Of a stretch of DNA of 44,824 bases, positions 2,902 to 33,437 are shown piece by piece. Made by a program: the position numbers and the translations under genes. The stretch is taken from positions 1 to 44,824 of the IMG/VR virus record IMGVR_UViG_2778261573_000004. One strand, given 5' to 3'. Source of the DNA: a virus (lineage: Duplodnaviria; Heunggongvirae; Uroviricota; Caudoviricetes). Every line of letters starts with the position of its first letter. Position 1 is the stretch's first letter. The notes under the pieces are model-generated. The model did not search any database. It was not told the origin of the DNA and saw nothing but the letters and a program-made list of their open reading frames with translations.

Positions 2902-3495
2902 TTATGAATAATTGAAAATGATGTTCAGATGGGATGGGGCAATTTTGTTGATTGAACACTCCAGTTGTTTATTGCCCCACGATGCGAGCGGATCTCCGCA
3001 GTAGGACGCGCCAGCAAGCGAATACTTGATCGTTGTTTGTGGCGCATTTATCCGCCAGGTAAATGGCCACTCGTCACCGTTAAGCGCATCACCGCATACT
3101 GACATGCCACTCATAGCGGGCCGGAACTGTGTGATAGTGATGGTATAACCAAGAGCTGCAGCCACCCGGATGTAATAATCGCGGTTCAGGCCGCCGGTGC
3201 TGATTAACTTTGCCACCACGGCGCGCTGGCGATCGCTGACGCCACCGGATTCACCAATCGCACAATCATCTGGTAACCCCAGAGAGCTTTCCCATTCTGA
3301 CAACATTACCGTCGCTGTAGGGGGAAAAGCACCAGTAATCAGGCTTTGCGCATCGTTGTCAGAACGCTGAAACGCGCTGCCCAGTGCCCGTAATACCGCA
3401 GCCTGTACCGTTCTTTGCGACCGGGGCCACGCCCTGCCCGTCGGTAGCAGCGCACCAAGCGCACCGGCATAATCATTTTTTGAAAAGAGGCTCAT
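2902..3495 (-). CDS. Tail protein, Mu gp48-like (DUF2313-like)
   Basis: 197 aa ORF between baseplate J and the tail fibre, the position of Mu gp48; 4-nt overlap with the upstream gene. Family assignment is from memory of this gene order and is not verified. Confidence 0.55.
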   Translation of the reverse strand: MSLFSKNDYAGALGALLPTGRAWPRSQRTVQAAVLRALGSAFQRSDNDAQSLITGAFPPTATVMLSEWESSLGLPDDCAIGESGGVSDRQRAVVAKLISTGGLNRDYYIRVAAALGYTITITQFRPAMSGMSVCGDALNGDEWPFTWRINAPQTTIKYSLAGASYCGDPLASWGNKQLECSINKIAPSHLNIIFNYS

Positions 3496-4634
3496 ACAAA
3501 ATTCACCCCGCCAAGCACCGGAATTTCGCCAACAGCAAAGGTGATATTGGCCGTCGGAGAGTTAAGAATATAGCCCGTCGTGCCGCTAACACCGCCGATA
3601 CTCCCGTTAATATCAGAGAGGTAAACTTTCCCAGAACCATCAGGGTTAGCTTCATCAAAAAACAGCGCCGTCAGCGCGTCTTTTATCCCCTGAACTGTGG
3701 TGCTGTCGGCATTTTTGATCCCAGAGATTTCAATATTGATGACTTTCTTGATCGGGGAACATACGAAAACAATGGCAGTGTCTGTCTGCTGCGGATAGAT
3801 GTGGTCGGCGACAGCGAGCTGGTCTCCGGTGGCTTTAACAGCCCCCCAGTCCTCAAGTTGGGATATTCCGTCGGTACCGACCGGAAACCCACCATTGTCA
3901 TTCCGATCACACATGATATACACGCCAACGGTCCCGGCCCCGTTCAGACGCCGCTTTACCCACGCGCGGGTGACGCCCGAAACCTCAAGCGCCCATTTTT
4001 TATAATCGGCGTCGCTTCCACCCTGAGGCGGATTCTGCCATGCCAGCAAGCCACGACTGCGAAAATCCTCTTCCGTTTCAATATCGGCTCCGCCGGTCGC
4101 AGCGGACAGTAACGTTACCTGTGGATCCACGCCAGCAATATTCGCGTCCAGGGTCATTATGGTCCCGGCATCAGCGTTACCGCGCGCGCCTCCACCCGTT
4201 ACATCACTGGTAATATCCGGCAGTATGGCCGTCACCGCGACGATACCAAATCCATCTGCCTGAATTTTAAGATCTGCATCCGTCCGGTACTGGTATCCGT
4301 CCCCGCGGTTAATGATCGAGCCAACAGGGATAATACAGTCAACACTGCCACTAGCCTGTACCGCAGGCGACTTCGCCGCTGCAGCTGGTTTTCTGAATAC
4401 CTGCTTAAGGGCCATCCACCCGGCGAGATACTCATCGGTAGAGGTAAACGGGTTTGTCTGCAGGGCAATATAGTCAAGGTAGGCGTAATGCAGATGCCCC
4501 ATCCCCGCATCCATGTCAGCCAGTACCTTCAGGTTCGCGAAGCGCAGGAGCGCACCAACATCCTCAAGCTCCGCCTGCATAAATTTCCGGTTTCCGTCGC
4601 GGAGTTCGCTCAGCGTCGGTCGTTTAAACGGCAT
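3492..4634 (-). CDS. Baseplate J-like protein (Mu gp47-like)
   Basis: Start taken at MPFKRPTLSEL (ATG 4634-4632), directly after the stop of the upstream gene; size and position match baseplate J. The 5-prime ORF extension to 4772 is rejected. Confidence 0.75.
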   Translation of the reverse strand: MPFKRPTLSELRDGNRKFMQAELEDVGALLRFANLKVLADMDAGMGHLHYAYLDYIALQTNPFTSTDEYLAGWMALKQVFRKPAAAAKSPAVQASGSVDCIIPVGSIINRGDGYQYRTDADLKIQADGFGIVAVTAILPDITSDVTGGGARGNADAGTIMTLDANIAGVDPQVTLLSAATGGADIETEEDFRSRGLLAWQNPPQGGSDADYKKWALEVSGVTRAWVKRRLNGAGTVGVYIMCDRNDNGGFPVGTDGISQLEDWGAVKATGDQLAVADHIYPQQTDTAIVFVCSPIKKVINIEISGIKNADSTTVQGIKDALTALFFDEANPDGSGKVYLSDINGSIGGVSGTTGYILNSPTANITFAVGEIPVLGGVNFV

Positions 4635-23698: not shown

Positions 23699-24169
23699 TC
23701 AATTTAAGCACTGCTCTTTGATGTATTCCTGCAAATATCCAACCTGTTTCGTCACTGTGACGATTCGCTCTCTGAGGGTGAAATAATCCCGTTCAGCGGA
23801 GTCAGTAAGTCGGGGGCCGGTAACATCGCCCAGGCCGCCGGTGCTGGTCGTTCCGTTCGCGGGACAGTTTGCGTTGAGCTGCAGCCGCTTACGGCCAGCA
23901 ATGACATCGCTATGCAGACGCTCAATGGTTTCTTTCGCATCAGCCAGTTCTCCGGTGTATTTGGCATCCAGTGCAGCGACATCACGCTGGCGCACCTTCA
24001 TGTCATCGATGGTATTTTTCGCAAGGCTGAGATTCTCAATTGCCTTGTCGCGCTGGTCTTTGTAGGTGATGGCGTTGTCGCGGTAGTGGTTAACGAAGAA
24101 CGCCAGCACGCCGATTACCGACACCACAATCAGTTGCAGCCAGTAACGCTTAACCAGCGCGCCAATCAT
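23699..24169 (-). CDS. i-spanin Rz (lysis cassette B)
   Basis: 156 aa with N-terminal TM helix (LQLIVVSVIGVLAFFV) and coiled-coil periplasmic domain; 4-nt overlap with the endolysin gene. Confidence 0.8.
   Translation of the reverse strand: MIGALVKRYWLQLIVVSVIGVLAFFVNHYRDNAITYKDQRDKAIENLSLAKNTIDDMKVRQRDVAALDAKYTGELADAKETIERLHSDVIAGRKRLQLNANCPANGTTSTGGLGDVTGPRLTDSAERDYFTLRERIVTVTKQVGYLQEYIKEQCLN
23752..23940 (-). CDS. o-spanin Rz1 (embedded in Rz, +1 frame)
   Basis: MRKKPLSVCIAMSLLAVSGCSS has signal peptide and lipobox LAVSGC; Pro-rich mature part; entirely embedded within the Rz ORF. Confidence 0.75.
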   Translation of the reverse strand: MRKKPLSVCIAMSLLAVSGCSSTQTVPRTERPAPAAWAMLPAPDLLTPLNGIISPSESESSQ

Positions 24170-24606
24170 GACAGGAACAGAGCCCGCTCTGCCTCCCGCC
24201 GACGTGTCAGCCCATTCAGCACCTTCCCACCAGCTTTATTCCAGCGCAGGAACTCATCGGCTGCACCAGCGTAATCTCCGGCGTTGAGTTTTCGCAGGAG
24301 AGTCGATGTCGACAATGACCGCGCACCGAGGTTATACGTGAACGACACCAGGGCATCGAATTGCCCCTGAGTCAGGCCAACTTTAACCAGTCGTGACACG
24401 TCACTTTCGTAACTGACCATTCCTGTCTTCAGCAGGCGTTCTGCCGTTTCCTGCTTAATTGTCATCCCGGCACGGATTGGTTTCCCGTCGACGGGCTGAG
24501 TCCAGCCATAACCGATCGTCCAAACGCCGACGCTGTCCTGATAGGCAGTGAGCTTGCAACCTTCGAACTCTTTGATCAGGGCAATGCCTTTATCACTGGT
24601 TTGCAT
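24166..24606 (-). CDS. Endolysin, phage lysozyme (GH24, T4/P22-type)
   Basis: 146 aa; MQTSDKGIALIKEFEGCKLTAYQDSVGVWTIGYG shows the lysozyme E...D...T catalytic spacing. Confidence 0.9.
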   Translation of the reverse strand: MQTSDKGIALIKEFEGCKLTAYQDSVGVWTIGYGWTQPVDGKPIRAGMTIKQETAERLLKTGMVSYESDVSRLVKVGLTQGQFDALVSFTYNLGARSLSTSTLLRKLNAGDYAGAADEFLRWNKAGGKVLNGLTRRREAERALFLS

Positions 24607-24910
24607 TCTTCATCCCCGTCAAGCGTTCCCAGAAATAGGTCAGAGCCACTGAACCCATCGCCCCGCTAATGCCGGACGTGACAAGGATCATGTGAAAACT
24701 CAACCCACTCTCCACGCTTATCAACCCGCCAATCAAACCGGTAAAGCCGGAGACAGCGATCTGTGCCAGCGCGTTTATCCAGCTCCATGTCGCTTTATTC
24801 TGCTTTACGTCGATCAGGTAGCGAACTAAACCGCCCCAGCATGCAATGCCGAGCAGGACTAACCAGGACAGGCCTACAATTTTGTGGTCGTCATTCATAC
24901 GCTTTGCCAT
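24593..24910 (-). CDS. Holin (lysis cassette B)
   Basis: Start at MAKRMNDD (ATG 24910-24908); multiple TM helices; overlaps the endolysin start. The longer ORF to 25102 is rejected because it runs through the terminators. Confidence 0.7.
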   Translation of the reverse strand: MAKRMNDDHKIVGLSWLVLLGIACWGGLVRYLIDVKQNKATWSWINALAQIAVSGFTGLIGGLISVESGLSFHMILVTSGISGAMGSVALTYFWERLTGMKNANQ

Positions 24911-24980
24911 ATCACCTCCGAAGGAACGGGGTGCTGTTTGTGTAGAGTGGAAGGATGCCAGGAAACAACGACCGGACATC

Positions 24981-25009
24981 GCAAATAAAAAAGCCAGCGA
25001 CAGGCTGGC
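24981..25009 (-). terminator. Rho-independent terminator (second of a tandem pair)
   Basis: Minus-strand RNA GCCAGCCUGUCGCUGGC (perfect 6-bp stem) followed by UUUUUUAUUUGC; embedded in a 16-bp direct repeat CGCAAATAAAAAAGCC also found at 25081-25096. Confidence 0.7.
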
Positions 25010-25081
25010 AATGTGAGGGTAAGGCAATGTCGGCTCTCTGGCCGAAGGGTCCCAGGTAGTGGGTTCTGTGTGCTGCGTACC

Positions 25082-25114
25082 GCAAATAAAAAAGCCCCGC
25101 ATAGGCGAGGCTGG
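25082..25114 (-). terminator. Rho-independent terminator (first of a tandem pair), after the peptidase gene
   Basis: Minus-strand RNA GCCUCGCCUAUGCGGGGC (7-bp stem, one mismatch) followed by UUUUUUAUUUGC. Confidence 0.6.
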
Positions 25115-25130
25115 AATCAGACAGGGGGGA

Positions 25131-26033
25131 TTAAGACTGGATATTCCAAATCATTGCGTTACCGTTATGATTTTCAATGATTTTTGCCAGTGGTGCTCCA
25201 CCAAAAGAATGCATGTAGCTGTGATGTATAGTCAAAACCAAATCTTGAAGTACTTGATCACTTTCAAGTTCGGTAACATTCAACCCAATTTTCTGCGCCT
25301 TATCAAAATGAATATGACGCGAGTGGGTATAGGTTGTGTGATGGTTGTTTAACTCTGAACAAACATGTGTTGCTTTTGATTCTGCCTCAGGATCATTATC
25401 AAACATGCCTGTCATAAGCCAATGCTTAACAATCTCATTTGCCCATTTGATTGCTTTCTCACACTCGCCGATGATCGTCGGGTTTAGCTTTTGAAGAATG
25501 AACTGCCACATCTGAACAGCTGCGGGATTTTGAAAAATTTCCGTCTGCGCACGATTCCATTCTTCAATGATGGCATGGGTGGAGAAACCGTTGAACTGAG
25601 GATCAATTGGGCCAATGTTGGACTGTTTACCCATGATGATTTCATTGGCACAACATGCAAGCATAGTTCCGCAGGACATTGAAATCATAGGAACAATTGC
25701 TCTGATGTTAGTTCCAAACTTCGACCTTAAGTAATGCCCGATTGATTCCAAAGCGGCAATATCACCACCTGGAGTATGAAGTATCAAATCCAACCCTTTT
25801 GATACATCTAAACCATTGATGGCTGTCATCAACCCGTTCTTATCATCATCAGTCATCTGAGTAAGATGGCGTACTTCTGCACCACCATGCTGTAACCACC
25901 CTGAGTAATATGTGATTACATTTCTTCCAGTATGATTCGAAAGTTGAGATAAGTATTTACGGCGAACCTCATCCATAGGACTTTTATGGGCGAGAGCCGT
26001 TATCTCGCCCAGTACGTCGCTCCAATTAGGCAT
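25131..26033 (-). CDS. ClpP/S49-fold serine peptidase (resembles SDH-family Clp-fold proteinases), cargo gene
   Basis: 300 aa; LILHTPGGDIAALESIGHYL and MISMSCGTMLACCANE resemble the PGG and nucleophile-Ser motifs of ClpP/SppA-fold peptidases; AT-rich codon usage unlike flanking genes; unrelated in sequence to the prohead protease at 16336-17202. Confidence 0.55.
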   Translation of the reverse strand: MPNWSDVLGEITALAHKSPMDEVRRKYLSQLSNHTGRNVITYYSGWLQHGGAEVRHLTQMTDDDKNGLMTAINGLDVSKGLDLILHTPGGDIAALESIGHYLRSKFGTNIRAIVPMISMSCGTMLACCANEIIMGKQSNIGPIDPQFNGFSTHAIIEEWNRAQTEIFQNPAAVQMWQFILQKLNPTIIGECEKAIKWANEIVKHWLMTGMFDNDPEAESKATHVCSELNNHHTTYTHSRHIHFDKAQKIGLNVTELESDQVLQDLVLTIHHSYMHSFGGAPLAKIIENHNGNAMIWNIQS

Positions 26034-26036
26034 AAA

Positions 26037-26237
26037 TCAGTACGTGTAAAGTTGATGACTTGTAGTTTGGTTTTGCTTCGATTGTGTAGCGGTACCTTGT
26101 GAGTACCAAACACCTGTGTTTCCACTCGTACTAGTTTGCTGTGCCATTACACGAGAAGCGAAGTTGTTAACAGTTTCACCAGTCAACATTTCTGCCGGTT
26201 TGATATTGTAAACATCGTAGAACTCAGCTGGGGTCAT
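26037..26237 (-). CDS. Small hydrophilic protein of unknown function, co-transcribed with the peptidase
   Basis: 66 aa, Thr/Ser/Gln-rich; strong RBS AAAGGAG 8 nt before ATG 26237; stop 3 nt before the peptidase ATG. Confidence 0.45.
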   Translation of the reverse strand: MTPAEFYDVYNIKPAEMLTGETVNNFASRVMAQQTSTSGNTGVWYSQGTATQSKQNQTTSHQLYTY

Positions 26238-26607: not shown

Positions 26608-27144
26608 TCATTTTCGTAACTTCTCAATCTCTCGTATACCCGCCAGGTTATTGTTGCCCTTCTCAATAACAGCCAGCAAAGGTTCAATCCAGAGGACGGC
26701 CTGGCAATACGTCATTGAGCTGGCGGCAGCGGTACTATCATCGGTTGCGTTAGTGTTCCCGGTATCGGGGTGCATTGCGCTGGCACGTAAACGGTACGCG
26801 TATTTGAGCAGCCCACCAGCGACATCAGCAGGAACAGGCAGATCACAGGTCTTTTCACGTCGGAGAATCTCCCGGTATTCGATGACAGTTTTCTCAGTAC
26901 CGGCATCGATCAGCGAGTTAAGGCGGTTGGCGTTCTCTGCTATCTGGTTAAACCGATTGAAGTTGAAAGCCTGTGTAGTTATCACCGTCGCCTGCAGCGC
27001 GTTATCATTACGTAATACCCGATTCTCACTCTGTTCTGTTTCAAGAGCTGAGCGGCTACGAACCAGTAATACGCTAAGCACTGCAATAATGATTACGACA
27101 GCCACCAGCAGAACCGCAACAATCGTAATTTTTCTGGGTTTCAT
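26608..27144 (-). CDS. i-spanin Rz-like (lysis cassette A)
   Basis: 178 aa with N-terminal TM helix (ITIVAVLLVAVVIIIAVLSVLLV) and periplasmic coiled-coil; follows the SAR endolysin with ATGA overlap. Confidence 0.7.
   Translation of the reverse strand: MKPRKITIVAVLLVAVVIIIAVLSVLLVRSRSALETEQSENRVLRNDNALQATVITTQAFNFNRFNQIAENANRLNSLIDAGTEKTVIEYREILRREKTCDLPVPADVAGGLLKYAYRLRASAMHPDTGNTNATDDSTAAASSMTYCQAVLWIEPLLAVIEKGNNNLAGIREIEKLRK
26712..26906 (-). CDS. o-spanin Rz1-like (embedded in Rz)
   Basis: Embedded +1-frame ORF with lipobox LVGCS and Pro-rich C-terminus; the true start may be the internal GTG at 26858. Confidence 0.5.
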   Translation of the reverse strand: MPVLRKLSSNTGRFSDVKRPVICLFLLMSLVGCSNTRTVYVPAQCTPIPGTLTQPMIVPLPPAQ

Positions 27145-27716
27145 CAGAATACCCCCGGAACTGATACCGGAATGCCAGGGTTAAGCGGCCCGAGTCCATC
27201 CCCCAGAACCTGAGGTTTCTCTGCCCACAGGCAAACTTCACGCTCAATCTCACGCCTCGTGATTAAACCCTTCCACTGTTTGTCACCAGCATAGATCCAG
27301 CGCCGCAGTTGTTCGCATGCGCCTTTCGAATCACCCTGGTTGATTTTTCGTAACAGTGTGGAGGTTTTGAAGTTTCCCGCGCCTACGTTATACGCAAATG
27401 AGTACAGCGCCCCTCTCATCGTTTCGGGGATCGGAGCATTGATATATGGGTTAATCTGTCGGGCGACAATATTCAGGTCTTTATCCAGCAGCGCCTGGCA
27501 CTCTGCTTTGGTGTAGGTCTTGCCGAGGATAATATCTTTACCAGTATGGCCCCAGCATACAGTCCACACTCCAACAACATCCCGATAAGGCTGATAGCGT
27601 ACACCTTCAAGGCCATCATTACCCGTTGGGCCAGTAATCAACGCCGCAGCGATAGCAATAGCGCCAGCGGGTATCGCTGCAATAACGCTATTCTTCAGCT
27701 TTGGTGGCATAGCCAT
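27144..27716 (-). CDS. SAR endolysin (phage 21 R21-like lysozyme)
   Basis: N-terminal Gly/Ala-rich signal-anchor-release domain ([19 protein letters not shown]) followed by [28 protein letters not shown], matching my recollection of the phage 21 lysozyme catalytic region. Confidence 0.85.
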
Positions 27717-27966
27717 TGCGCCGATCCTCCCGTTCTTTCCAGCGGAAATACCAGTTCACTGCACAGGTAATAACAGTGCATGCGATACCGACAATAATTG
27801 CCCAGTCGCTCAGGCTTAACCCTGCAATTCTGTCGGCCAACATCCAGGACACCTCTTTTGCTGTTTTAGCTGTTTCGGCATATGCCTTCGCTGATACACC
27901 GCAGCCGGTCAGCGTGGTTCCTGTTCCATATGAAAGTCTGCTGTAAATGGTGCTCATTCTGGTCAT
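27688..27966 (-). CDS. Pinholin (S21-like) with dual-start motif
   Basis: 92 aa; N-terminus MTRM gives two in-frame starts separated by Arg (holin/antiholin arrangement); C-terminus [13 protein letters not shown] resembles the phage 21 pinholin tail. Confidence 0.75.
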
Positions 27967-31390: not shown

Positions 31391-31557
31391 GCTGATTTTC
31401 TCCTCGCTGCGAGACGCAGCCATTTCTGATCCACCAGGCGGGCGGTGTAGTCTTTCAGGGTCGGGATATCGGACGGCTTAACCGCGGGCTTAGGCTTGCG
31501 GCGCGCCGGAACGCGAAAGATTTCGTTTGTGATGACGCGGGAAAGTGGAGTTGACAT
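31387..31557 (-). CDS. ninE: NinE-like small protein (56 aa; below the ORF-track size cut-off)
   Basis: [36 protein letters not shown] resembles lambda NinE as I recall it; start overlaps the ninB stop (TGATG) and its stop overlaps the phosphatase start (ATGA). Confidence 0.55.
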
Positions 31558-32012
31558 CAGGCCTCCTGCTTATCGCGCAGCACCTGAAATTCGCTGCTTT
31601 GAGGGATTGTGAGCACCAGGCCAAACTGAGCGCACCAGCCTTCCACCTGGCACATGAAATGGTGCATGTCGCCAGTGTCCAGATCGGACGTGTGGCGGAG
31701 TTCTAATTCAATCGTCTTAATTCCGGTGACGAAATCGGTGTACTCAACCTCTTCATAACCCAGATAAGTTTTTTTGAGGTTTCGCTTTACCCATGCAGGC
31801 GTTGCGTCAGTGCGCCCAGACTTGATCAGGTAGTCGCTTATTTCCTTGTACCAAACGTGGCTCAGACTATTTTGTGAAAGGCTTCTCTTCTCGCGCCAGT
31901 CTTTGAGTTGGAGCCGGAAGCACTCACCGTTTTCGAGAAGTGGCTTCAGATGCTGAGTGATAGCACCAAGATTTCCACGGTGTAGCTTGATGCCGTCTTT
32001 GGAGATAATCAT
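31557..32012 (-). CDS. ninB: NinB (Orf-family recombination protein)
   Basis: Start at MIISKDGIKL (ATG 32012); NinB-like size and position in the nin region. Confidence 0.75.
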   Translation of the reverse strand: MIISKDGIKLHRGNLGAITQHLKPLLENGECFRLQLKDWREKRSLSQNSLSHVWYKEISDYLIKSGRTDATPAWVKRNLKKTYLGYEEVEYTDFVTGIKTIELELRHTSDLDTGDMHHFMCQVEGWCAQFGLVLTIPQSSEFQVLRDKQEA

Positions 32013-32380
32013 ACGGCCTCCTTGACGGAAACCGCAGAATGCAGAAAATCGCAGGTGCATGTCTGCATCTGTGACAAGGCGATGAGTTCAGATTGTGGTC
32101 GCATTTAAGTCCCCTTAAATGCGCAGAAGTCTTACCGTCGGGCGTTCAACTCCGACGACGGTTAAATTATGGCTGGTTGATTATGGAAAATCAACATAAG
32201 AGAAAGGCCTTCGAAGAGGCCATTGGTGTCTTGATGCTGGTTTATAAATCTCTACCCGCCGGGATGATTCACAAAATACATTTGCAATTAGTACTTCAGG
32301 GAAGGCTGGATTTGATCTAGCTTGTTAAACAATCCGTAGATTATGATATCGGGATAAAAAACAGAAGGGATGGCCTGGTT

Positions 32381-32818
32381 ATGAATAATGGGGTGTTTAC
32401 TACCGTCATTACTGGTGTTTCAGTGTTTGTGTTGGGTCAGATATTTGTAAAATCCATGCTTGATCCTTACATTTCATTCAAGGAACATTTGGGGATGGTT
32501 TCGGCCATTCTCCTGCGTGAGCAAAATAAAATCCTTAGCATCAATGCGAAAAGCGAAGTAATAAACGAAATCAAACAGGCGTCAGCTTTGCTGTTGTCAA
32601 AATCTAATGCCATACCCTTGTATGGAATGTTGGCTACTTTACGTCTCCTTCCTCGATACAAAGATGTCCTTAAGGCCTCGTGGAATCTGAATCTTATTGC
32701 GTCTATTTTAGAAGAAGGAAGAAACACCACCCCCAAAGAAACCTATACAACTATTTCTAATTCTCTCAATGCGGTAGGCAGTAAGTTAGGGGTGGTTGTT
32801 ACATACAGACCATCTTAG
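32381..32818 (+). CDS. Membrane-anchored protein of unknown function (AT-rich opposite-strand cargo gene)
   Basis: 145 aa; N-terminal TM helix (VFTTVITGVSVFVLGQIFV); region 32100-32820 is AT-rich relative to flanks; convergent with the DUF551-like gene. Confidence 0.55.
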   Translation: MNNGVFTTVITGVSVFVLGQIFVKSMLDPYISFKEHLGMVSAILLREQNKILSINAKSEVINEIKQASALLLSKSNAIPLYGMLATLRLLPRYKDVLKASWNLNLIASILEEGRNTTPKETYTTISNSLNAVGSKLGVVVTYRPS

Positions 32819-32819
32819 A

Positions 32820-33437
32820 TCAGCAAATAATATCTTCCTGCTGCGGCGCTGCCGGCAGCGGCATCCAGTGGGTTGGGCTCCATGATGCTCCTGGTATAAT
32901 CCAGCCATCTATATCTGCATCCGGATGCCCAGGGCAATTTGTTGCCCACTTCATTGCATAGCCGCCAGGAGCTGATTGCCATGGCGCAGCAACTATCACA
33001 CCTGTTGATGGGCTTGGCATCCGCTTACTGCAAGCCACCCAACCGTCTGTCAACTCATCACTATTACTTACAGGTTCGGCCTGAAGCATGGCGGCGCGAT
33101 AGGCGTTCCAGCCGACAGCTTTTCCGTGTTCAAACGCGCTGTCAAAGTCATCATCAATTTCCATCGCAGCGGGCACAGATACCGGCGCTGGCGGGGCGGT
33201 GTAAAGCGGCGTTACTTCTCGCAGCGGGTCGGCATAAGCATTGCCACTATCGAAGCTGACGTTGTTTTTTGCCCCGCCTCCTGACAGCAACCACGCCACC
33301 GGCTCCGCTTCGAGCGATGCCAGCGCTATACGCGCCATCTCTTTGACAACGTCACAGTTTTTATTTCCTTCGCAATCATCCATCAAAAGCCAATCGTCAT
33401 TGATTATTTCTTTAATCTTATCCCGTGAAAGTTCCAT
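32820..33437 (-). CDS. DUF551-like protein
   Basis: 205 aa; C-terminal GWVACSKRMP...WATN...THWMPLPAAP resembles DUF551 domains common in lambdoid nin regions (from memory). Confidence 0.55.
   Translation of the reverse strand: MELSRDKIKEIINDDWLLMDDCEGNKNCDVVKEMARIALASLEAEPVAWLLSGGGAKNNVSFDSGNAYADPLREVTPLYTAPPAPVSVPAAMEIDDDFDSAFEHGKAVGWNAYRAAMLQAEPVSNSDELTDGWVACSKRMPSPSTGVIVAAPWQSAPGGYAMKWATNCPGHPDADIDGWIIPGASWSPTHWMPLPAAPQQEDIIC

What the first reader, a model, noticed from the sequence alone, without database searches (positions are those of the whole stretch)
32060..32820. AT-rich plus-strand insertion in the nin region encoding a membrane-anchored protein
Seen in sequence: between ninB and the DUF551-like gene (both minus strand) lies an AT-rich block transcribed in the opposite direction. 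It has a 145-aa protein with an N-terminal TM helix and possibly a 45-aa upstream ORF (32183-32320, weak RBS). Two hairpins (GCATTTAAG-N6-CTTAAATGC at about 32091-32115 and GTCGG-N10-CCGAC at about 32131-32150) precede it. The nin region is a known hotspot for accessory or abortive-infection-type genes.
Basis: partly seen in the sequence, partly recalled or inferred. Interest (0 to 1): 0.55.

Follow-up and report, generated by a model that had tools for sequence, protein, structure and literature searches.

The report
Prophage cargo gene for membrane-anchored protein
A rare, AT-rich, backwards-facing cargo gene in a lambda-like E. coli prophage encodes a small inner-membrane protein from a large family found in bacteria and archaea that nobody has characterised; its location hints at a role in blocking other phages, but that is untested.

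Summary
The core observation is real. A 145-aa ORF (32381-32818, + strand) lies in a 40% GC block between a YbcN/NinB-type gene and a DUF551 gene, both on the minus strand. It is under purifying selection (dN/dS 0.12-0.20).

It is an accessory cassette of about 612 nt (32224-32835). At least 12 of 5,426 complete E. coli genomes carry it, whereas 477 carry the adjacent backbone sequence. Relatives hold other small genes in this slot.

The protein has one N-terminal transmembrane helix and a basic helical bundle that is probably cytoplasmic (AF2 pLDDT 89). It matches PHROG 7512 (unknown function) and about 2,550 50%-identity clusters, including named archaeal, cyanobacterial, Planctomycetes and Chloroflexota members. 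It has no Pfam, NCBIfam or PADLOC model and no specific structural match.

- The two hairpins belong to the conserved minus-strand backbone, the ylcH-like small ORF and leader of ybcN/ninB. They are also present in phi80 (IR4), HK639 and K-12 DLP12, which lack the cassette.
- The 45-aa upstream ORF is not conserved.

Function is inferred only. The most likely reading is a prophage-expressed membrane protein acting in phage exclusion or abortive infection, supported by mobile-element contexts and by defence-gene neighbours of distant homologues. This is moderately interesting: a new member of a known kind (a moron).

The parts
32224..32835 (+). Extent of the accessory cassette relative to related prophages that lack it
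   Evidence: Homology to the insert-free relatives L004 and L005 ends at about 32221-32223 and resumes at 32836, inside the last codons of DUF551. Those relatives carry a 79-aa minus-strand gene here instead. GC is 0.40. There are no flanking direct or inverted repeats.
32381..32818 (+). Gene for the 145-aa bitopic membrane protein (PHROG 7512 family)
   Evidence: ORF. PHROG 7512 at E = 1.3e-57 over the full length. dN/dS is 0.12-0.20. RefSeq WP_023306327.1, 'hypothetical protein'. The exact sequence occurs on 983 contigs across Enterobacteriaceae.
32393..32449 (+). Codons for the single transmembrane helix (residues 5-23, VFTTVITGVSVFVLGQIFV), the most conserved part of the family (T8, G12, G19)
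   Evidence: Hydropathy maximum. Conserved columns in A1, A3 and A7. The AF2 model has a continuous helix over residues 3-46.
32342..32347 (+). Candidate -10 hexamer TATGAT of the cassette's own promoter (inferred)
   Evidence: The T-A-n-n-A-T positions are conserved in 14 diverged orthologous upstream regions: TATGAT, TAAAAT, TACCAT, TAGGAT, TACGAT. The consensus scan did not call it, because no good -35 is present.
32311..32323 (+). Conserved upstream block (TTnATCTnGCyT). Together with 32337-32343 it forms an imperfect inverted repeat, TGATCTA / TAGATTA. It is a possible regulator site or -35 region.
   Evidence: Alignment of orthologous upstream regions. Function is inferred only.
32365..32370 (+). 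Shine-Dalgarno-like AAGGGA, 11 nt before the ATG
   Evidence: Read directly from the sequence. Orthologues have GGTGGA, GGAGAGG or AGGTGA at the same place.
32183..32320 (+). 45-aa upstream ORF; rejected as a gene
   Evidence: Its length and sequence are not conserved, and it is absent in L046, L050 and L054. PHROG E = 0.34.
32009..32104 (-). Backbone, not cassette: ylcH-like 31-aa ORF, overlapping the ybcN start by ATGA
   Evidence: ORF. K-12 DLP12 has ylcH in the same position, overlapping ybcN by 4 nt. The peptide core SQMQ(K/T)CTC is shared. The DNA aligns.
32101..32122 (-). Backbone hairpin 1 (phi80 'IR4'). On the minus-strand RNA its loop is GGGA (Shine-Dalgarno-like) and its 3' arm holds the ylcH-like AUG.
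   Evidence: Coordinates. phi80 annotation as IR4. Conserved in 11 phages with a few compensatory changes. The K-12 and Kosakonia versions have a different stem sequence.
32137..32156 (-). Backbone hairpin 2. The stem sequence differs between phages but a hairpin is kept.
   Evidence: Alignment A2: window GTCGG/CCGAC, phi80 TCTGCCAG/CTGGCAGA, Kosakonia CCGCCGG/CCGGCGG.
32166..32194 (-). Backbone promoter-like site TTGATT-17-CATAAT pointing at ylcH-ybcN
   Evidence: Promoter scan. The hexamer positions are invariant in 13 phages while the spacer varies. Also present in K-12 DLP12.
32206..32221 (-). Backbone terminator-like hairpin GGCCTCTTCGAAGGCC followed by TTTCTCTTAT, for transcripts coming from the replication genes
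   Evidence: Terminator scan. Shared with the insert-free L004 and L005.

Best explanation
This is a moron-type accessory cassette. It comprises about 100 nt of its own upstream control region plus one gene. It has recombined into the variable slot that lies just upstream of the terminator-promoter-ylcH-ybcN/ninB boundary of a phi80/HK639-like lambdoid prophage, in the orientation opposite to the early-right operon.

Shown: the gene encodes a 145-aa bitopic membrane protein. Inferred from charge bias and domain fusions: a 4-residue tail faces outside, one transmembrane helix follows, and a basic 4-5-helix bundle sits in the cytoplasm. The transmembrane helix carries conserved small and polar residues (T8, G12, G19, Q20).

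Inferred: the gene is transcribed from its own weak sigma-70-type promoter in the lysogen. It is silenced by convergent early-right transcription when the prophage is induced. The protein acts at the inner membrane, probably as an oligomer or by binding a membrane partner through the conserved helix. Its likely role is to exclude or abort infection by other phages, in the manner of a Sie- or Abi-type membrane protein.

The cassette and protein anatomy are well supported. The anti-phage role is a minority-to-even bet.
For: Cassette status:
- GC is 0.40 against 0.52 for the window, on the opposite strand.
- It is present in at least 12 of 5,426 E. coli genomes, against 477 with the neighbouring backbone.
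- Relatives hold a 79-aa gene, theta plus a 73-aa gene, or an N15 gp45-like gene in the same slot.
- K-12 DLP12 carries ybcK, ybcL and ybcM between emrE and ylcH, at the equivalent position.
- In Enterobacter and Kosakonia prophages the gene is always 361 nt from the ninB/ybcN start and on the opposite strand.
- A conserved TAnnAT and an upstream block lie 39 nt before the ATG.

Mobility across element types:
- P1-like phage D6, between humD and phd/doc.
- Contigs of about 48 kb with IncFII RepA and ParA, probably phage-plasmids, next to HigBA.
- Contigs with sit iron-transport genes, IS1 and ParA, probably plasmids.
- An integrase-bearing element.
- A Serratia contig with RdgC, Dam, ParE and UmuDC.

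Protein:
- Purifying selection.
- The AF2 model has pLDDT 89 and pTM 0.73.
- In 117 family members the N-side flank has 0.38 K/R and the C-side flank has 2.48. The median pI of the C-terminal domain is 9.1.
- Fusions place a signal-peptide-led Peptidase_C39 domain or secreted extension before the helix, and extra transmembrane helices after the domain.

Defence hint:
- Neighbours of distant homologues hit PADLOC models: ThsA-like SIR2, PD-T4-6 kinase, MkoA, DUF4238-Pers, type II REase and MTase, and PD-Lambda-4_A.

Silencing logic:
- The stop codons of the ORF and DUF551 are 1 nt apart, or overlap by 20 nt in orthologues.
- No + strand terminator was found within 180 nt.
Against: - There are no expression data.
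- The promoter scan does not call a promoter for the gene, and the gene has no terminator of its own.
- With only about 4 residues outside the membrane, the protein cannot contact periplasmic injection machinery the way many Sie proteins are thought to.
- One distant homologue sits between housekeeping genes, pgi and rpsI.
- The defence-neighbour evidence rests on about 4 of 9 non-prophage contexts, with no background control.
Confidence: 0.42

Rival explanations
1. It is a lysogenic-conversion or host-fitness membrane protein unrelated to phage defence, for example envelope or stress tolerance, membrane organisation, or modulation of a host transporter. The prophage carries it as cargo because it benefits the lysogen.
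For: The family is very broad (2,554 clusters; named archaeal, cyanobacterial, Planctomycetes and Chloroflexota members). At least one member lies between housekeeping genes. The same DLP12 slot carries the non-defence cargo ybcL and ybcM, with emrE further upstream. There is no catalytic motif. The protein is a bitopic inner-membrane protein with a basic cytoplasmic bundle.
Against: The protein is patchy and rare among close relatives. It is repeatedly found on phages, plasmids and integrative elements, next to toxin-antitoxin and defence genes. That pattern is more typical of conflict genes than of physiology genes.
Confidence: 0.25
2. It serves the phage's own life cycle or counter-defence. 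Examples are tuning lysis timing or holin function, anchoring replication or injection at the membrane, or inhibiting a host membrane defence.
For: It is located in the early-right region of a prophage. Its membrane location resembles holin or antiholin regulators. The window has an apparently redundant lysis gene set. It is carried by several unrelated temperate phages.
Against: Its orientation is opposite to all lytic transcription, with convergent overlap. Most close relatives lack it, so it is not needed for growth. It also occurs on probable non-phage plasmids and in chromosomal islands. It does not match holin, spanin or Phage_lysis models. The predicted cytoplasmic domain argues against an i-spanin.
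Confidence: 0.15
3. It is a membrane-active toxin that stabilises the element that carries it, as an addiction or post-segregational killing module. The controlling antidote would be an antisense transcript or a neighbouring small gene.
For: It sits beside phd/doc in D6, HigBA in the probable phage-plasmids and ParE in the Serratia element. The transmembrane helix with small and polar residues is conserved, as expected for an oligomerising pore. Convergent antisense transcription is built into the locus. Some relatives have an adjacent or fused multi-TM partner.
Against: No conserved partner gene exists across contexts. At 145 aa with a folded soluble domain it is unlike type I membrane toxins. 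The upstream small ORF is not conserved. Purifying selection and a wide stand-alone distribution do not require an antidote.
Confidence: 0.1
4. It is a chance ORF in an AT-rich non-coding spacer.
For: None beyond the weak ribosome-binding site and the absence of annotation beyond 'hypothetical protein'.
Against: dN/dS is 0.12-0.20 with saturated synonymous sites. Full-length homologues extend down to about 20% identity with a conserved architecture. The AF2 model is confident.
Confidence: 0.01

Closest known systems
Morons of lambdoid phages (type example: HK97 gene 15, a superinfection-exclusion inner-membrane protein; Cumby et al. 2012, reviewed in PMC3594210)
   Same: A single extra gene with deviant base composition, inserted between genes of a conserved operon. 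It is present in some relatives only, encodes a small inner-membrane protein, and is expected to be expressed from the prophage.
   Different: There is no sequence relation: gp15 is YebO-like (PMC3594210), whereas this protein is PHROG 7512. It is oriented against the operon and lacks its own terminator. The slot is the replication/nin boundary, not the tail operon. No exclusion phenotype has been shown.
P22 SieA, T4 Imm and lactococcal Sie2009-type injection blockers (PMC10883804)
   Same: Small prophage-encoded cytoplasmic-membrane proteins that need no partner gene.
   Different: SieA is 162-164 aa with three predicted transmembrane segments (PMC10883804). Here there is one helix, and almost nothing is exposed outside the membrane. 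No Pfam match was found to any family, and there is no specific structural match.
Membrane-acting abortive-infection components (lambda RexB, SieB, 1-2 TM effectors of CBASS, Pycsar and retron systems)
   Same: Membrane anchoring with a conserved helix suited to oligomerisation, a cytoplasmic domain that could receive a signal, and carriage on prophages and in defence islands.
   Different: Those effectors work with a sensor partner (RexA, cyclase, retron RT), and none is conserved here. PADLOC hits to 2TM effectors are only marginal (E = 0.006 in 3 of 39 members).
Cargo slot upstream of ylcH-ybcN in E. coli K-12 cryptic prophage DLP12 (ybcK, ybcL and ybcM; emrE and ylcJ further upstream)
   Same: The same backbone landmark (promoter-like site, ylcH small ORF, ybcN, ninE), with non-phage cargo placed immediately upstream.
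   Different: The DLP12 cargo is co-oriented with the nin genes and encodes quite different proteins.
PHROG 7512 (phage protein family of unknown function)
   Same: Full-length HMM match at E = 1.3e-57. Homologues from D6-like and plasmid contexts match even better.
   Different: The PHROG covers only the enterobacterial phage branch. The profile search shows a much larger family outside phages.

Membership tests
Moron (Hendrix/Juhala sense) | Extra DNA present between genes that are otherwise neighbours in related phages | tested here: met
   At least 12 of 477 related E. coli regions carry it. Relatives have other small genes or none at this point.
Moron (Hendrix/Juhala sense) | Base composition different from the surrounding genome | tested here: met
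   GC is 0.401 against 0.518, in the lowest 0.45% of windows. GC3 is 0.41 against 0.51-0.60 in the neighbours.
Moron (Hendrix/Juhala sense) | Own promoter | tested here: inconclusive
   A conserved TAnnAT and an upstream block lie 39 nt before the ATG in 14 orthologues. There is no consensus -35, and the scan did not call it.
Moron (Hendrix/Juhala sense) | Own terminator | tested here: not met
   No + strand terminator-like site lies within 180 nt downstream. The stop codon is 1 nt from the convergent DUF551 stop.
Moron (Hendrix/Juhala sense) | Expressed from the repressed prophage | not testable with these tools
   Needs RNA-seq or a reporter in a lysogen.
PHROG 7512 | Significant full-length match to the family HMM | tested here: met
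   E = 1.3e-57, residues 1-143 on profile positions 1-140 of 141.
Known superinfection-exclusion proteins (gp15/YebO, SieA, SieB, Imm) | Sequence or fold homology to a characterised member | tested here: not met
   No Pfam family matched at E <= 0.1 for 39 family members. The structure searches gave only generic bundles.
Known superinfection-exclusion proteins (gp15/YebO, SieA, SieB, Imm) | Blocks infection or DNA entry of superinfecting phage | not testable with these tools
   Phage challenge is required.
Catalogued anti-phage defence systems (PADLOC-DB v2) | Match to a defence protein model | tested here: not met
   The window protein has no hits. The family has only marginal hits to TM effectors.
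i-spanin (Rz-type) | N-terminal anchor with a periplasmic coiled-coil domain, encoded in the lysis cassette with an o-spanin partner | tested here: not met
   Charge bias and fusions indicate a cytoplasmic domain. There is no Phage_lysis match. The gene is about 5 kb from the lysis genes, and RefSeq annotates a separate 'lysis protein' in the prophage's lysis cassette.
   There is no Pfam NinB hit. RefSeq calls it a YbcN family protein. YbcN is treated as an Orf-family member in PMC4118853. Orthologous slots in relatives hold PF05772 NinB.

The most novel reading that the evidence does not exclude
The 145-aa protein is the enterobacterial-prophage representative of a new, very widespread single-gene membrane immunity family. 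The family has about 2,550 clusters at 50% identity and spans bacteria and archaea. The proposed mechanism is that a cytoplasmic helical-bundle sensor, tethered by a conserved oligomerising transmembrane helix, aborts or excludes phage infection. In some lineages the sensor is fused or paired with extra transmembrane helices.
Probability: 0.25. Interest if true: 0.65.

Novelty: new member of a known kind. Interest (0 to 1): 0.36.

Why it matters
If the anti-phage reading holds, this small cassette would give a handle on a large family of membrane proteins that has no Pfam, NCBIfam or PADLOC model and moves between phages, plasmids and defence islands.

It would also mark the ylcH-ybcN/ninB boundary of lambdoid prophages as a cargo and defence slot worth mining. 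Part of the cargo that K-12 DLP12 carries next to emrE sits in the same slot.

If the reading does not hold, this remains one more uncharacterised prophage cargo gene. The main value of this check is then the correction that the hairpins and the small upstream ORF are not part of it.

Tried and rejected
- The 45-aa upstream ORF as a partner gene was rejected. It is not conserved in length, frame or sequence among orthologous cassettes.
- The hairpins as cassette regulators were rejected. They are backbone, shared with phi80, HK639, CobraSix, K-12 DLP12 and 477 E. coli genomes.
- Rfam search of 31900-32900 at E <= 1 gave nothing.
- A sigma-54 reading of CTGG-N10-GC upstream of the gene was dropped, because the GG is not conserved in orthologues.
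- A HEPN-type Rx4-6H motif was considered. The family's 'LIGLSN(S)xH' has no arginine and is absent from the window clade, so this was rejected.
- Transposon-like flanking repeats: none found.
The taxonomic spread therefore rests on source names.
- Literature searches for the protein accessions, PHROG id or phi80 IR4 found nothing relevant.
- BLASTP found no homology between the cyanobacterial 121-aa partner and the C-terminal TM extension of the 300-aa subfamily.
Full report
**What is in the sequence**

The window is a lambdoid prophage read mostly on the minus strand. It matches E. coli NCTC9040 at 100% across the region studied.

At 32381-32818 there is a + strand ORF of 145 aa. Its left neighbour is a minus-strand 151-aa gene at 31557-32012 that RefSeq calls a YbcN family protein. 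This gene has no Pfam NinB hit, but YbcN is treated as an Orf/NinB-family member in PMC4118853. The right neighbour is a DUF551 gene at 32820-33437.

The two convergent stop codons are 1 nt apart. The block 32224-32819 has GC 0.401 against 0.518 for the window, and only 0.45% of equal-sized windows are as low. The ORF's GC3 is 0.41 against 0.60 and 0.51 for its neighbours. GC skew turns positive over 32200-32500.

**It is a real gene**

Orthologues at 62-99% protein identity keep the frame and length. Nei-Gojobori dN/dS against eight of them is 0.12-0.20, with synonymous sites near saturation. The start codon and the four residues before the hydrophobic helix are conserved, and a Shine-Dalgarno-like purine run precedes the ATG in all versions.

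**It is an accessory cassette in a variable slot**

A megablast of 32020-32860 against 5,426 complete E. coli genomes found the whole segment in 12 genomes. The left 200 nt alone was found in 477.

Homology to two prophages without the insert (L004, L005) stops at about 32221-32223 and resumes at 32836, inside the last codons of DUF551. Between those points the two relatives carry a 79-aa minus-strand gene. Other phages hold different content in the slot:
- phi80 has an N15 gp45-like gene.
- HK639 and CobraSix have a theta-subunit gene plus a small unknown gene.
- In K-12 DLP12, ybcK, ybcL and ybcM lie between emrE and ylcH, at the equivalent position.

In Enterobacter and Kosakonia prophages the orthologue always sits 361 nt from the ninB/ybcN start, on the opposite strand. 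The right-hand neighbour varies. No flanking repeats suggest transposition, so recombination at module boundaries is the likely route.

**The hairpins and the small ORF are not part of it**

The two hairpins are at 32101-32122 and 32137-32156. They lie in a segment that is about 90% identical on average over 32030-32125 among 13 phages from at least three genera, while its flanks are 46-71% identical.

On the minus strand this segment reads as follows:
- a terminator-like hairpin at 32221-32206;
- a promoter-like TTGATT-17-CATAAT at 32194-32166, whose hexamers are invariant while the spacer varies;
- hairpin 2, whose stem sequence differs between phages while the hairpin is kept;
- hairpin 1, which phi80 annotates as IR4.

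On the minus-strand RNA, the loop of hairpin 1 is GGGA and its 3' arm contains the AUG of a 31-aa ORF at 32104-32009. That ORF overlaps the ybcN start by ATGA. It is the homologue of K-12 ylcH, which overlaps ybcN in the same way.

The hairpins therefore belong to the ylcH-ybcN/ninB leader, which is present whether or not the cassette is there.

The 45-aa ORF at 32183-32320 starts inside the promoter-like element. In orthologous cassettes it is 42, 34, 29 or 23 aa with unrelated sequence, or it is absent. I reject it as a gene.

**Control signals of the cassette**

Alignment of 14 diverged upstream regions shows a conserved T-A-n-n-A-T (TATGAT at 32342-32347) 39 nt before the ATG. It also shows a conserved block at 32311-32323 which, together with 32337-32343, forms an imperfect inverted repeat. 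The consensus scan does not call a promoter there, because there is no good -35. An independent promoter is therefore plausible but unproven.

There is no + strand terminator within 180 nt. In some orthologues the ORF overlaps the convergent DUF551 gene by 20 nt. The inference is that early-right transcription during induction would collide with and silence the gene, restricting its expression to lysogeny.

**The protein**

There is one hydrophobic segment, at residues 5-23. With 108 homologues, AlphaFold2 gives pLDDT 89 and pTM 0.73. The model has a long helix over residues 3-46, followed by helices at 58-77, 81-86, 93-112 and 119-136.

The transmembrane helix is the most conserved part of the protein (T8, G12, G19, with Q20 in most members), followed by K24 and P29.

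Topology evidence points to a short tail outside and the bundle in the cytoplasm:
- In 117 family members the flank before the helix has 0.38 K/R and the flank after it has 2.48. The median pI of the C-terminal domain is 9.1.
- Natural fusions put a signal-peptide-led Peptidase_C39 domain (P0207) or a secreted extension (P0116) before the helix.
- Other fusions add extra transmembrane helices after the domain (P0143, P0181, P0188, P0204 and a 300-aa subfamily).

No catalytic motif is conserved across the family.

**Family and distribution**

- The protein matches PHROG 7512, of unknown function, at E = 1.3e-57.
- Nothing in Pfam, NCBIfam or PADLOC matches it or its relatives.
- A profile search of 1.84 billion cluster representatives finds 2,554 proteins at E <= 1e-3 and 1,694 at E <= 1e-10. 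Most are 135-180 aa.
- Named sources include Archaeoglobales, Planctomycetes, Chloroflexota and Pseudanabaena.
- The exact window protein occurs on 983 contigs in E. coli, Enterobacter, Citrobacter and Salmonella.

**Contexts**

Besides the lambdoid slot, homologues sit in the following places:
- in P1-like phage D6, between humD and phd/doc;
- on contigs of about 48 kb with IncFII RepA and ParA, probably phage-plasmids, next to a divergent HTH gene and HigBA;
- on contigs with sit iron-transport genes, IS1 and ParA, probably plasmids;
- in an integrase-bearing element;
- in a Serratia contig with RdgC, Dam, ParE and UmuDC;
- beside a SIR2 protein, a Ser/Thr kinase and a 1,274-aa protein;
- near DUF4238 and Mrr-like genes;
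- next to type II restriction-modification genes and HigBA in cyanobacteria, where a 121-aa three-TM protein follows immediately;
- in one case between pgi and rpsI.

PADLOC scanning of 39 neighbour proteins gave strong hits to REase_II, MTase_II, DUF4238-Pers, PD-T4-6, ThsA-like SIR2, MkoA and PD-Lambda-4_A. No partner gene is conserved across contexts.

**Interpretation**

The anatomy fits a moron-type cargo gene encoding a bitopic inner-membrane protein with a cytoplasmic helical bundle.

The mobile-element distribution, the rarity among close relatives, the orientation against lytic transcription and the defence or toxin-antitoxin neighbours make a prophage-expressed anti-phage role the single most likely function. 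That role could be exclusion at the membrane or abortive infection through the conserved helix.

No homology, motif or experiment supports this directly. The context sample is small and has no control. I put about 0.4 on this reading. The rest is shared among a non-defence host-fitness role, a phage life-cycle or counter-defence role, and an addiction toxin.

**Verdict**

- The finding is a new member of a known kind, a prophage moron. It belongs to a large family that has no entry in the curated family databases searched (Pfam, NCBIfam, PADLOC) and only an unknown-function PHROG.
- Interest is moderate.

Noticed in passing
window 32009-32221 (minus strand): A highly conserved backbone element lies upstream of ybcN/ninB. 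It comprises a terminator-like hairpin, an invariant TTGATT-17-CATAAT promoter-like site, two hairpins, and a 31-aa ylcH-like ORF overlapping ybcN by ATGA. The phi80 'IR4' hairpin holds that ORF's Shine-Dalgarno sequence in its loop and its AUG in the 3' arm. The segment 32030-32125 is about 90% identical across 13 phages, including ones where ybcN is replaced by a true NinB. No Rfam or Pfam family matches it.
   Followed up: partly
window 25131-26237 (minus strand): A second AT-rich block (GC 0.39-0.42) holds a 300-aa ClpP-like SDH-type serine protease (PF01972, E = 8e-23) and a 66-aa ORF. This may be another cargo or defence-type insertion.
   Followed up: partly
window 24166-25102 and 27144-27966: There appear to be two sets of lysis genes. 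A LydA-type holin plus a lysozyme-like ORF lie at 24166-25102. A second holin/lysozyme/Rz set lies at 26608-27966.
   Followed up: no
L063 6458-6823; L068 6445-6810: In two cyanobacterial contexts the family gene is immediately followed by a conserved 121-aa three-TM protein, overlapping or abutting it. This suggests a two-gene membrane module in that lineage.
   Followed up: partly
proteins P0330, P0335, P0357, P0376, P0378, P0204 (about 300 aa); P0207 (359 aa): Fusion variants of the family exist. One subfamily has about four extra C-terminal transmembrane helices. One protein has an N-terminal signal sequence plus a Peptidase_C39-like domain ahead of the family's helix.
   Followed up: partly
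window 32313-32343: An imperfect inverted repeat, TGATCTA ... TAGATTA (TAATC...GATTA in orthologues), brackets the putative promoter of the cassette and overlaps its -10. It may be an operator for an unknown regulator.
   Followed up: no
window 32820-32835: The right junction of the cassette lies inside the last codons of the DUF551 gene, so the insertion changed that protein's C-terminus. In Enterobacter orthologues the two convergent ORFs overlap by 20 nt.
   Followed up: partly
L017/L018 (Kosakonia cowanii) 3375-4447: The cassette and the conserved leader sit next to tail or baseplate-type genes (SLT, Dit-like) instead of ninB. This suggests a rearranged or degraded prophage that kept the cassette.
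   Followed up: no
window 32610-32625 and 32717-32734 (minus strand): The region 31900-33000 has four minus-strand terminator-like sites, against 0.9 +/- 1.1 expected by shuffling. Two of them lie inside the cassette ORF, where they could attenuate early-right read-through towards the nin genes and Q.
   Followed up: no
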